A stretch of DNA of 9,862 nucleotides from a virus. Taxonomy: Duplodnaviria; Heunggongvirae; Uroviricota; Caudoviricetes. Each line of letters begins with the position of its first letter. The first letter of the stretch is position 1. The translations under genes and the position numbers were made by a program. Shown one piece after another: positions 9,050 through 9,788 of this stretch. The stretch covers positions 1 to 9,862 of IMG/VR virus record IMGVR_UViG_2778261457_000002. The stretch is one strand, 5' to 3'. Under the pieces are notes generated by a model. It was given only the letters and a program-made list of their open reading frames with translations. It was not told the DNA's origin and did no database searches.

Positions 9050-9655
9050 TCAAAAAACTTTAATTTTGGCGTTTCGCTCACCACATATTGAGCACTTTAG
9101 CCGATTTTTTAAGTCTTCCAGAGTCAATCCTGAAGCTACATATTTTTTAATGTCTCTTTGAGAGAGTATCACTGGTTCACGGAACCTATAACCGCCGCAG
9201 AGATGTATTATCATTATCTCAGAATCATTTTCTAACCAGTCATTAAGAGTGTTGTGTGGTTTAGAAAGTCGCTCAATATCCAAACGCCATTGTTGGATTT
9301 CATTACTGTCCCAGTCGAGATTTAGTTTAGCACGTTGGGCAACGAATCGATGTTTTCCTCTGTTAATACTAGGTTCGTAGTCTTTTCGTTGATCGGTAGT
9401 AAGGTCCTCTTCGTATAGAAATGAATCATCGTTTTTATGAGTGGGTTCAAAAATTACTTCAATAAAACTTGGCTCATACGCGTTAAAACTTTTTTTTCTT
9501 ATGAATATCCCTTGTGTACCACTCCCGTTTAAATCAGCACAAAAATTAACATCTATTCCTCGACGAAGTGCGAAAAAATACCTATGTTCCCTCATGGCCA
9601 CAGCTAATTTGGCTATATCTATAAGGTTGTGTATTTTATCAGAATATGTATTCAT
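9050..9655 (-). CDS. Hypothetical protein, about 201 aa, AT-rich gene of unknown function
   Basis: Minus-strand ORF with stop TGA at 9052..9050. ATG at 9655..9653 is preferred, with GGAAG 4 nt upstream; the ORF-track start is TTG at 9670. Product MNTYSDKIHNLIDIAKLAVAMREHRYFF... shows no family signature I can recognise. C-terminal HLCGG ... CSICGE could be a small metal-binding motif. Composition is clearly more AT-rich than the dar operon. Confidence 0.55.
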   Translation of the reverse strand: MNTYSDKIHNLIDIAKLAVAMREHRYFFALRRGIDVNFCADLNGSGTQGIFIRKKSFNAYEPSFIEVIFEPTHKNDDSFLYEEDLTTDQRKDYEPSINRGKHRFVAQRAKLNLDWDSNEIQQWRLDIERLSKPHNTLNDWLENDSEIMIIHLCGGYRFREPVILSQRDIKKYVASGLTLEDLKNRLKCSICGERNAKIKVF

Positions 9656-9788
9656 GAGGCTTCCAAGCAAATATCATGACAAGCATAAAGTGTTAAAGTG
9701 ATGTTACGCATCTTAACAAAGTGACTCTTGATTAATTTTAATTCGCCCTATCTTGCTTGTCTAACCATCATTGCATATTCAGAGGGCA

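What the first reader, a model, noticed from the sequence alone, without database searches (positions are those of the whole stretch)
9050..9788. AT-rich gene of unknown function wedged between the dar operon terminator and IS1
The ORF of about 201 aa is convergent with the dar operon and is visibly more AT-rich. It has no family signature I can read, apart from a possible small Cys/His cluster at its C-terminus (HLCGG ... CSICGE). Its upstream region abuts the IS1 end directly. Genes in such positions in plasmid prophages are often accessory functions such as superinfection exclusion, abortive infection or toxins.
Basis: partly seen in the sequence, partly recalled or inferred. Interest (0 to 1): 0.5.

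Follow-up and report, generated by a model that had tools for sequence, protein, structure and literature searches.

The report
Phage P1 isaB accessory gene
The region is the already catalogued phage P1 gene isaB, an intact and transcribed stand-alone accessory gene for a small zinc-binding-type protein of a rare family found on mobile DNA, whose function is still unknown but probably lies in conflicts between mobile elements and their hosts.

Summary
The window is phage P1. The ORF at 9050-9655 (- strand, 201 aa) is the annotated gene isaB. It is convergent with the dar operon, has 36.5% GC against 47-52% for its neighbours, and lies 133 bp from the end of IS1.

IS1 is a simple insertion flanked by a 9-bp duplication. 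It left the isaB promoter and ribosome-binding site intact; both are identical in IS1-free relatives. Published RNA-seq shows isaB is transcribed, and a CRISPRi screen shows it is dispensable for lytic growth. About 80% of P1-like plasmids have lost it through a 609-bp deletion.

IsaB belongs to a rare family (105 clusters among 1.84 billion proteins). Its hallmark is a C-terminal four-cysteine site; P1 has lost one cysteine. The confident predicted fold matches no solved structure, and no Pfam, NCBIfam or PADLOC family matches.

Homologs sit in variable regions of mobile elements and islands: prophage edges, conjugative elements, and beside Septu and methylase/helicase defence systems.

Function remains unknown. 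My best guess is a moron-type defence or exclusion factor acting by binding (about 0.35), then a counter-defence factor (0.25). The gene itself is already known, so interest is moderate to low.

The parts
9050..9655 (-). isaB coding sequence (201 aa plus stop; ATG at 9655). An in-frame TTG at 9670 would add 5 residues.
   Evidence: ORF list. Identical to P1_gp020 IsaB in NC_005856. Matches phrog_30162 over its full length, E = 4e-145.
9266..9655 (-). Codons 1-130: N-terminal alpha/beta domain (two helices, a five-stranded antiparallel sheet, one helix). It carries the conserved motifs DLNGSGxQG (41-49) and FLYEADLxxDQRKDYEPxxNxGKHRF (79-104).
   Evidence: AlphaFold2 model with mean pLDDT 87 and pTM 0.83. 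Conservation in alignment A1 and in the 78-member alignment.
9053..9265 (-). Codons 131-201: C-terminal domain with the family's four-cysteine site (C153, [C158 is F in P1], C188, C191; H151 lies nearby) and the signature GLxLEDLKxRLKCxxCGxR.
   Evidence: Only weak, non-significant matches to generic zinc-ribbon proteins.
9735..9763 (-). Sigma-70-type promoter PisaB: -35 TAGACA (9763-9758), 17-nt spacer, -10 TAAAAT (9740-9735).
   Evidence: Consensus scan, 10 of 12 matches. Annotated as PisaB in NC_005856. Both hexamers are identical in the IS1-free relatives L013, L014 and L015.
9660..9664 (-). Shine-Dalgarno-like GGAAG, 5 nt upstream of the ATG.
   Evidence: Read from the sequence. Conserved in L013, L014 and L015.
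9004..9031 (.). Hairpin (GGCTTGCTT / AAGCAAGCC, 10-nt loop) between the convergent hxr and isaB genes; likely a shared terminator.
   Evidence: RNA fold -14.2 kcal/mol, z = -3.16. Inverted repeat I1. Annotated as 'terminator' in AJ000741. Not called by the simple terminator scan.
9780..9788 (+). Left copy of the 9-bp IS1 target-site duplication, CAGAGGGCA.
   Evidence: The same 9-mer flanks the other end of IS1 in P1 (L001 4181-4189 and 4958-4966).
9789..9862 (+). Left end of IS1 (terminal inverted repeat and the start of the insA region), running off the window.
   Evidence: NC_005856 annotation. Matches to IS1 copies in unrelated phages.
9159..9767 (.). The 609-bp segment missing in P7/JL22-type relatives. 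It runs from just upstream of the -35 box to about codon 165. Those relatives keep only the last 36 codons of isaB plus 32 bp of the module's outer edge.
   Evidence: BLAST of IS1-free P1 against P7 and JL22, junction alignment, and remnant counts.

Best explanation
**Shown.** isaB is a self-contained 'moron'-type cassette with its own sigma-70 promoter, ribosome-binding site, one gene and a hairpin, and with foreign base composition. It sits in the variable cargo slot between ssb and hxr of P1-like phage-plasmids. It encodes a soluble, roughly 23.6-kDa two-domain protein. The N-terminal alpha/beta domain has no recognisable fold relative. The C-terminal domain has the pattern of a four-cysteine zinc site. 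The gene is transcribed, dispensable for lytic growth and often lost. The same single gene is found in variable regions of prophages, conjugative elements and genomic islands in distant Proteobacteria.

**Inferred (the mechanism I commit to).** IsaB is a stand-alone defence or exclusion factor made by the resident element. It has no enzyme signature, so it would act stoichiometrically. The C-terminal zinc domain would dock onto nucleic acid or a conserved protein of an incoming phage or plasmid. The conserved acidic/aromatic surface of the N-terminal domain would then block that target's replication or expression.
For: **Cassette anatomy:**

**Independence from neighbours:**
- IS1 is a simple insertion with a 9-bp duplication.
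- isaB occurs without isaA in porin-type relatives.
- isaA occurs without isaB in SJ46 and RCS47.
- Across unrelated contexts, DNA homology stops within about 60 bp of the CDS, and the gene is more AT-rich than its surroundings in every host.

**Expression:** log fold change 6.4 at 10 min and 11.2 at 30 min in P1vir RNA-seq. The library looks strand-specific, because antisense iddB reads far lower than ddrB. There is no C1 operator in the window, so expression in the lysogen from PisaB is plausible.

**Dispensability and loss:** non-essential in CRISPRi. Only 25 of 119 plasmid records and 20 of 109 E. coli genomes keep a full copy. One copy is a frameshifted pseudogene, and intact copies show dN/dS of about 0.22-0.28.

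**Protein properties:**
- Confident model, no membrane segment, pI 7.7.
- Cys4 hallmark.
- Few conserved polar residues across the wide family, which suggests a binder rather than an enzyme.

**Defence-type neighbourhoods:**
- Directly upstream of Septu PtuA/PtuB in Aeromonas.
- Convergent with a DUF1156 methylase / DUF3780 / PLD-helicase system in an integrase-bearing island.
- Next to a Schlafen/AlbA_2 protein at a chromosomal island edge.
- Near FitAB and ParE toxin-antitoxin genes and a TIR protein on mobile elements.
Against: - There is no experimental phenotype.
- No PADLOC model matches, and no effector domain such as a nuclease, TIR or membrane segment was found.
- The neighbourhood evidence rests on about 10 distinct contexts, and only three of them contain recognised defence genes.
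- Several contexts fit an establishment or counter-defence role equally well: Toprim primases, umuDC, orphan methylases, ParB-like proteins, and ssb next door in P1.
- P1's own copy lacks one of the four cysteines. The gene is being lost in the P1 lineage, so the P1 allele might be weakened.
- Expression in the lysogen has not been measured. The RNA-seq data are from lytic infection only, where isaB tracks ssb and isaA and could partly be read-through.
Confidence: 0.35

Rival explanations
1. Counter-defence or establishment factor. IsaB would be made soon after the element enters a new cell, by infection or conjugation, and would bind and neutralise a host immunity component or another conserved host protein. 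Its role would resemble that of plasmid leading-region genes and would be complementary to the virion-packaged Dar proteins encoded next door.
For: - At 10 min after P1vir infection, isaB (6.4) is well above the late dar, tail and head genes (3-5) and close to early/middle genes such as rlfA, ban and lpa. It tracks ssb and isaA.
- Contexts rich in establishment-type genes: ssb in P1; Toprim primases, YAcAr and DUF736 on the alphaproteobacterial ICE; a DUF3991/Toprim_2 primase; umuDC, DUF4942 and Dam methylases and a ParB-HTH protein; a large ParB_N protein.
- It is a small protein with no enzyme signature.
- It is dispensable in a laboratory host that lacks most defence systems.
Against: - Three contexts are chromosomal or integrative islands beside defence systems, with no sign of a transfer leading region.
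- The protein is not acidic (pI 7.7), so it is not a DNA mimic of the Ocr/ArdA type.
- Among viral contigs it occurs only in P1-like elements, which would be unusual for a general phage counter-defence gene.
- It has its own constitutive-type promoter, with no C1 operator or annotated late promoter.
Confidence: 0.25
2. Nucleic-acid-binding regulator. The C-terminal zinc domain, with its helix-hairpin insert, would bind DNA or RNA, and IsaB would modulate expression of genes of the element or the host, for example as a silencer or anti-silencer.
For: - The C-terminal Cys4 module with a basic tail is the most conserved part of the family.
- One distant member is the last gene of an operon with an HTH_3/Peptidase_M78 regulator.
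Against: - All structural and sequence matches are far below significance.
- Neighbours differ in every context and homology stops at the CDS, so there is no conserved target gene or operator.
- No repeated operator-like motif stands out near isaB.
Confidence: 0.15
3. Selfish or decaying passenger. isaB would spread as a mobile single gene (homing-endonuclease-like), or would simply be a remnant with no current function in P1.
For: - Intergenic, AT-rich and sporadically present, with single-gene-sized homology blocks across unrelated elements.
- Aeromonas and alphaproteobacterial copies are 87.6% identical in DNA over the CDS only.
- Deleted in about 80% of P1-like plasmids, and frameshifted in one.
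- P1 has lost a family-conserved cysteine.
Against: - No nuclease or recombinase motif or fold of the HNH, GIY-YIG, PD-(D/E)xK or HUH types was detected.
- Intact P1-lineage copies show dN/dS of about 0.22-0.28.
- The family keeps 50-59% identity and many invariant residues across bacterial classes, which indicates selection on the protein.
- Promoter and ribosome-binding site are conserved, and the gene is transcribed.
Confidence: 0.1

Closest known systems
Phage 'morons' (extra genes with their own promoter and terminator inserted between genes that are adjacent in related phages; concept from lambdoid phage genomics, recalled from general knowledge)
   Same: - Own sigma-70 promoter and a downstream hairpin.
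- Base composition different from the flanks.
- Absent from the same slot in close relatives such as SJ46 and RCS47.
- Dispensable for lytic growth.
   Different: 'Moron' describes a genomic anatomy, not a function. The hairpin lacks a clear T-run. Expression in the lysogen has not been shown.
Single-protein prophage or plasmid exclusion and abortive-infection factors (for example P2 Tin and Old, Salmonella prophage BstA; recalled from general knowledge)
   Same: - A stand-alone gene on a temperate element, non-essential and sporadically distributed.
- In other genomes it is embedded among defence systems.
   Different: - No sequence or fold similarity to any of them.
- No PADLOC model matches.
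- No phenotype is known.
- No effector domain was found.
Anti-defence genes of plasmid leading regions (Samuel et al., Nature 2024, PMC11541004; seen in the literature search, not read in detail)
   Same: A small gene of unknown fold on conjugative elements, near primase, ParB-like, orphan-methylase, umuDC and ssb genes.
   Different: - The position relative to oriT was not determined.
- Its orientation is not uniform with its neighbours.
- It also occurs in chromosomal defence islands.
- It is not acidic like the DNA mimics.
Zinc-ribbon / Cys4 zinc-knuckle domains (TFIIS C-terminal domain, rubredoxin-like proteins, ribosomal zinc-ribbon proteins)
   Same: Two cysteine pairs (C-x4-6-C and C-x2-C) next to short beta strands at the C-terminus. 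These proteins give the only (weak) profile matches.
   Different: - The matches are not significant (E of 0.12 or higher).
- About 30 residues forming two helices are inserted between the two knuckles.
- P1's copy has only three of the four cysteines.
P1 IsaA (the other 'IS1-associated' gene)
   Same: Same strand, same cargo slot, also low in GC according to the literature, also without a family assignment, with similar RNA-seq behaviour.
   Different: - Unrelated in sequence.
- It occurs without isaB in SJ46 and RCS47, and isaB occurs without it in porin-type relatives.
- It does not resemble the neighbours of IsaB homologs elsewhere.
- So the two genes are not an obligate pair.

Membership tests
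IsaB family (phrog_30162; P1_gp020 homologs) | Full-length sequence similarity to the family profile | tested here: met
   phrog_30162, E = 4.4e-145, covering profile positions 1-201 of 201. 100% identical to annotated IsaB. 56 homolog clusters and 105 clusters at 50% identity.
IsaB family | C-terminal four-cysteine site (C-x4-6-C ... C-x2-C-G) with the GLSLEDLKxRLxC signature | tested here: inconclusive
   C153, C188 and C191 are present. The second cysteine, present in 96% of 78 members, is F158 in P1 and its closest relatives. H151 might substitute for it, but that is an inference only.
Zinc-ribbon fold | Two zinc knuckles on beta hairpins, with significant similarity to known zinc ribbons | tested here: inconclusive
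   Short strands at 147-150, 162-164 and 197-200 flank the cysteines. The best PDB profile matches are E = 0.12-0.5, and there is no significant fold match. Metal binding cannot be tested with these tools.
Known anti-phage defence systems (PADLOC-DB v2) | Match to a component HMM | tested here: not met
   0 families at E up to 10.
Homing endonucleases and other nucleases (HNH, GIY-YIG, PD-(D/E)xK, HUH) | Catalytic motif or fold | tested here: not met
Phage moron | Own promoter | tested here: met
   TAGACA-17-TAAAAT at 9763-9735, conserved in relatives. This is a sequence prediction only. Transcription of the gene is shown, but the transcription start was not mapped.
Phage moron | Own terminator | tested here: inconclusive
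   A stable hairpin at 9004-9031 is annotated as a terminator in AJ000741. It has no T-run on the isaB strand and was not called by the scan.
Phage moron | Absent between the same flanking genes in related phages, with deviant composition | tested here: met
   SJ46 and RCS47 lack it and P7 and JL22 carry a deletion. GC is 36.5% against 46-52% for neighbours.
Toxin-antitoxin or DarTG-like pair | Conserved adjacent partner gene | tested here: not met
   One distant member is followed by a DarT-like gene. No partner exists in P1 or in any P1-type homolog context, and the partner did not recur in 7 further loci.
DNA-mimic anti-restriction proteins (Ocr/ArdA type) | Strongly acidic protein | tested here: not met
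   Calculated pI is 7.7 overall, 6.9 for the N-terminal domain and 7.9 for the C-terminal domain.
Xre/HTH repressors | Helix-turn-helix domain | tested here: not met

The most novel reading that the evidence does not exclude
IsaB is the founding member of a previously unrecognised single-protein conflict system. It would be a new-fold, zinc-binding protein that moves as a lone gene between phage-plasmids, prophages, conjugative elements and defence islands of alpha- and gammaproteobacteria. It would block, or protect against, an invading element by stoichiometric binding rather than catalysis.
Probability: 0.3. Interest if true: 0.6.

Novelty: already known. Interest (0 to 1): 0.33.

Why it matters
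P1 is one of the most used and best annotated phages, yet isaB has remained a name without a function for over twenty years.

This analysis turns it into a defined target:
- an intact, expressed, single-gene cassette;
- a member of a rare family with a conserved four-cysteine domain and a confidently predicted fold that resembles no solved structure;
- a gene repeatedly found in the cargo regions of mobile elements and next to defence systems.

If a defence or counter-defence activity were shown, it would add a new single-protein system and explain one state of a variable cargo slot of P1-like phage-plasmids, which are vehicles of antibiotic-resistance genes. If no phenotype is found, isaB is simply one more dispensable passenger gene.

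Tried and rejected
**Family searches**
- Pfam, NCBIfam and PADLOC scans of IsaB found nothing. The only hit was MurT_C at E = 0.15, which I dismissed.
- Pfam on ten distant or extended members, including the two with an N-terminal extension of about 175 aa, found nothing.

**Structure and profile searches**
- Profile searches of the PDB with the whole family, with subfamily B and with the C-terminal domain alone gave nothing significant.
- The AlphaFold-database library was unavailable.

**isaA-isaB operon split by IS1: rejected.** The two genes occur independently. IsaA is unrelated to the DUF5677 neighbour of the ICE homologs.

**Conserved flanking RNA, attC site or partner gene: rejected.** Homology ends at the CDS and Rfam finds nothing.

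**C1-repressor control: no support.** No operator match within 3 mismatches.

**DarT partnership:** a single case that did not recur.

**Membrane or secreted exclusion protein: rejected.** There is no hydrophobic segment.

**Literature**
- The P1 genome paper (PMC523184) could not be retrieved.
- Searches for isaB together with defence or anti-defence terms found nothing.
- One search failed on a too-short term.
- One alignment was too divergent for locus scanning.

Full report
**What is there**

The window is phage P1 (99.9% identical to NC_005856 and AJ000741). It runs from the C-segment/cin region through lydA, lydB, hdf, darA, ddrA, ddrB and hxr to the left end of IS1.

The flagged ORF is the annotated gene isaB ('IS1-associated gene B', P1_gp020). 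It lies on the - strand at 9050-9655, starts with ATG and encodes 201 aa.
- It is convergent with the dar operon, whose last gene, hxr, ends at 8938.
- Its GC content is 36.5% (GC3 29%), against 46-52% for the dar genes.
- IS1 starts at 9789.
- A hairpin at 9004-9031 lies between the two convergent genes. It is annotated as a terminator in AJ000741.

**Relation to IS1 and to isaA**

IS1 in P1 is flanked by a perfect 9-bp direct duplication, CAGAGGGCA (window 9780-9788 and the far side of IS1). This means a simple transposition into a spacer of about 218 bp between isaA and isaB, which lie on the same strand.

I removed IS1 computationally and compared the result with relatives. Homology with IS1-free P1-like elements (L013, L014, L015) begins 144 bp upstream of the isaB ATG, only 11 bp beyond the IS1 target site. 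So IS1 landed just inside the outer edge of an 'isaB module'.

The predicted promoter PisaB (TAGACA-17-TAAAAT, 9763-9735) and the GGAAG ribosome-binding site are unchanged in those relatives. IS1 ends 25 bp upstream of the -35 box and did not disrupt them.

**The ssb-hxr slot is a variable cargo site**

At least four states exist:
- P1: isaA - IS1 - isaB.
- A porin gene plus an intact isaB, with no IS1 and only a short diverged remnant of the isaA 3' end (L013, L015).
- A porin gene plus a 609-bp internal deletion. The deletion removes window-equivalent 9159-9767, from the -35 box to about codon 165. This is the state in P7 and JL22.
- An unrelated 281-aa ORF plus an isaA-like gene, without isaB (SJ46, RCS47).

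isaA and isaB are therefore independent modules, not a split operon.

In PLSDB, 25 records carry a full-length isaB and about 94 carry only the last 36 codons. In complete E. coli genomes, 109 of 5,426 have any trace and 20 have the whole gene, almost always on plasmids. One full-length copy (E. fergusonii, L014) is a frameshifted pseudogene. Intact copies give dN/dS of about 0.22-0.28, based on few substitutions. Published comparisons also list isaA-IS1-isaB as a low-GC variable region of P1-like phage-plasmids.

**Expression and essentiality**

A genome-wide CRISPRi screen scored isaB as non-essential for P1 lytic growth (PMC10695390).

In P1vir RNA-seq (PMC8201110, Table S1), isaB shows a log fold change of 6.4 at 10 min and 11.2 at 30 min. 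The antisense gene iddB reads far lower than ddrB, so the data appear strand-specific.

At 10 min isaB is well above the late dar, tail and head genes (about 3-5) and close to ssb and isaA (7.4-7.5), rlfA, ban and lpa. It is therefore transcribed, with early/middle-like kinetics. It may run partly from its own promoter and partly by read-through from ssb and isaA; this was not resolved. No C1 operator lies in the window. Expression in the lysogen is untested.

**The protein**

IsaB has no Pfam, NCBIfam or PADLOC match. Its only assignment is a PHROG of unknown function.

An exhaustive profile search of 1.84 billion representative proteins found only 105 clusters. A scan of 185,579 species genomes found only 12 loci. 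Among IMG/VR viral contigs, only P1-like ones carry it.

Members are almost all stand-alone proteins of 200-260 aa. The P1-type subfamily keeps 50-59% identity between enterobacterial and alphaproteobacterial copies, with many invariant residues (DLNGSGxQG; FLYEADLxxDQRKDYEPxxNxGKHRF).

Across 78 diverse members the universal features are D41, G44, Y81, Y93, F104, W140 and four cysteines: C153 in 100%, C158 in 96%, C188 in 97% and C191 in 99%. These sit within a signature GLSLEDLKxRLxCxxCGxR.

AlphaFold2 gives a confident model (pLDDT 87, pTM 0.83). It has an N-terminal domain (two helices, a five-stranded sheet, one helix) and a small C-terminal domain with short strands next to the cysteines. 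No solved or viral predicted structure resembles it:
- Foldseek against the PDB: best E = 0.02.
- Foldseek against BFVD: best E = 0.04.
- Profile searches of PDB sequences: only weak generic zinc-ribbon hits.

The protein is soluble (no hydrophobic segment) and near neutral (pI 7.7).

**Genomic contexts elsewhere**

In unrelated contexts DNA homology is confined to the CDS, from about -60 to +30 bp. The gene is more AT-rich than its surroundings in every host. The Aeromonas and alphaproteobacterial ICE copies are 87.6% identical in DNA over the CDS only.

Contexts found:
- The edge of a cryptic prophage in Serratia.
- A fixed position in an alphaproteobacterial conjugative element, upstream of the HTH_17-RepA-ParA-TraF-relaxase backbone. 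Its left neighbours are DUF5677, FitAB and Toprim genes, or a Tn3 insertion.
- Directly upstream of a Septu system in Aeromonas (PtuA E = 3e-139, PtuB E = 3e-86).
- Beside a Toprim primase in Dankookia.
- In an integrase-bearing island, convergent with a DUF1156 methylase / DUF3780 / PLD-helicase system in Novosphingobium.
- Among umuDC, two orphan methylases and a ParB-like gene.

Distant subfamily members lie in three kinds of place. One is an operon with an HTH_3/M78 protein on an element carrying ParB, an integrase, IS66 and TIR genes. One is at an island edge next to a Schlafen/AlbA_2 protein. One, a single case, is followed by a DarT-like gene, which did not recur in seven further loci.

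**Interpretation**

What is shown:
- isaB is a real, intact, transcribed and dispensable single-gene cassette of foreign composition.
- It belongs to a rare family borne on mobile elements, with a four-cysteine C-terminal domain and no detectable relation to any characterised family.

What is inferred:
- The anatomy is that of a phage 'moron'.
- The family's neighbourhoods are those of genes involved in conflicts between mobile elements and hosts.
- The lack of any enzyme signature, and the small number of universally conserved polar residues, point to a binding mechanism.

I rank the explanations as follows:
- Resident-element defence or exclusion factor: about 0.35. Three contexts are defence islands and the gene has a constitutive-type promoter.
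- Counter-defence or establishment factor: about 0.25. This fits the early-like transcription and the primase, ssb, methylase, ParB and umuDC neighbourhoods.
- Nucleic-acid-binding regulator: about 0.15.
- Selfish or decaying passenger: about 0.1.

None is demonstrated.

**Novelty and verdict**

The gene, its name and its position are long catalogued (AJ000741, NC_005856), and its unknown status is known, so the finding itself is 'already known'.

What is new here:
- the family definition and its Cys4 hallmark, with P1 an atypical member;
- the absence of any fold relative among solved structures;
- the history of the slot (IS1 target duplication, module boundary, the P7-type deletion);
- the independence of isaB from isaA;
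- the spread of the gene across different kinds of mobile element.

Interest is moderate to low. It would rise if a phenotype were found.

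Noticed in passing
window 9780-9788, and L001 4181-4189 / 4958-4966: IS1 in P1 is flanked by a perfect 9-bp target duplication, CAGAGGGCA. It inserted only 11 bp inside the boundary where P1 and the porin-type relatives stop being homologous.
   Followed up: yes
L002 (P7) about 4557-4591; L003 (JL22); window equivalent 9159-9767: P7, JL22 and roughly 80% of P1-like plasmids carry a 609-bp deletion that removes the isaB promoter and the first 165 or so codons. A 36-codon remnant is left unannotated. In the P7 record, ddrB is labelled 'prt' and hxr is labelled 'odaA'.
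   Followed up: yes
L014 4001-4606 (E. fergusonii plasmid p18B226LT3): This isaB copy has a frameshifted stretch with two in-frame stops around codons 29-50, after which the reading frame is restored. It is a pseudogene and is not annotated in the record.
   Followed up: partly
L013 5902-5988 and L014 1905-1991: An 87-bp stretch just downstream of ssb in porin-type relatives is 76-82% identical to the 3' end of P1 isaA. This suggests a diverged isaA was largely replaced when the porin gene arrived.
   Followed up: partly
Logan contig of SRR22198329 (protein P0096; no DNA available): A distant IsaB-family member is followed after 34 bp by a 208-aa gene with a weak DarT (PF14487) hit. This could be a two-gene module, but it was seen only once.
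   Followed up: partly
L008 6747-7691 with 8001-8675; L017 2-610 with 928-1599: A DUF5677 gene and the IsaB-like gene form a divergent pair. The pair is kept (90% and 79% protein identity) in two otherwise different surroundings in Alphaproteobacteria. The DUF5677 gene is replaced by Tn3 transposases in L010.
   Followed up: partly
window 8922-8931 and 8941-8950: A perfect 10-bp direct repeat, ACCAGATAGT, occurs twice 19 bp apart, straddling the hxr stop codon. Its significance is unknown.
   Followed up: no
window 6207-6605 (- strand): The 132-aa antisense ORF inside ddrB is annotated as the gene iddB in P1. In P1vir RNA-seq it reads far lower than ddrB (log fold change -1.1 and 4.9, against 4.7 and 11.1). 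This casts doubt on it as an expressed gene and shows that the library is strand-specific.
   Followed up: partly
L057 (RCS47) 1746-2954 and L058 (SJ46) 1746-2954: RCS47 and SJ46 carry an IS605-type transposase gene (insQ) inserted between ddrA and ddrB, inside the dar operon. RCS47 also has IS26 with blaSHV cargo in the ssb-hxr slot.
   Followed up: no
L001 5005-5030 (outside the window, downstream of isaA): A GC-rich hairpin, GGGTGC(CAGAGA)GCACCC, has its T-run on the strand opposite to isaA. It looks like a terminator facing the IS1 / isaB side rather than one terminating isaA.
   Followed up: no
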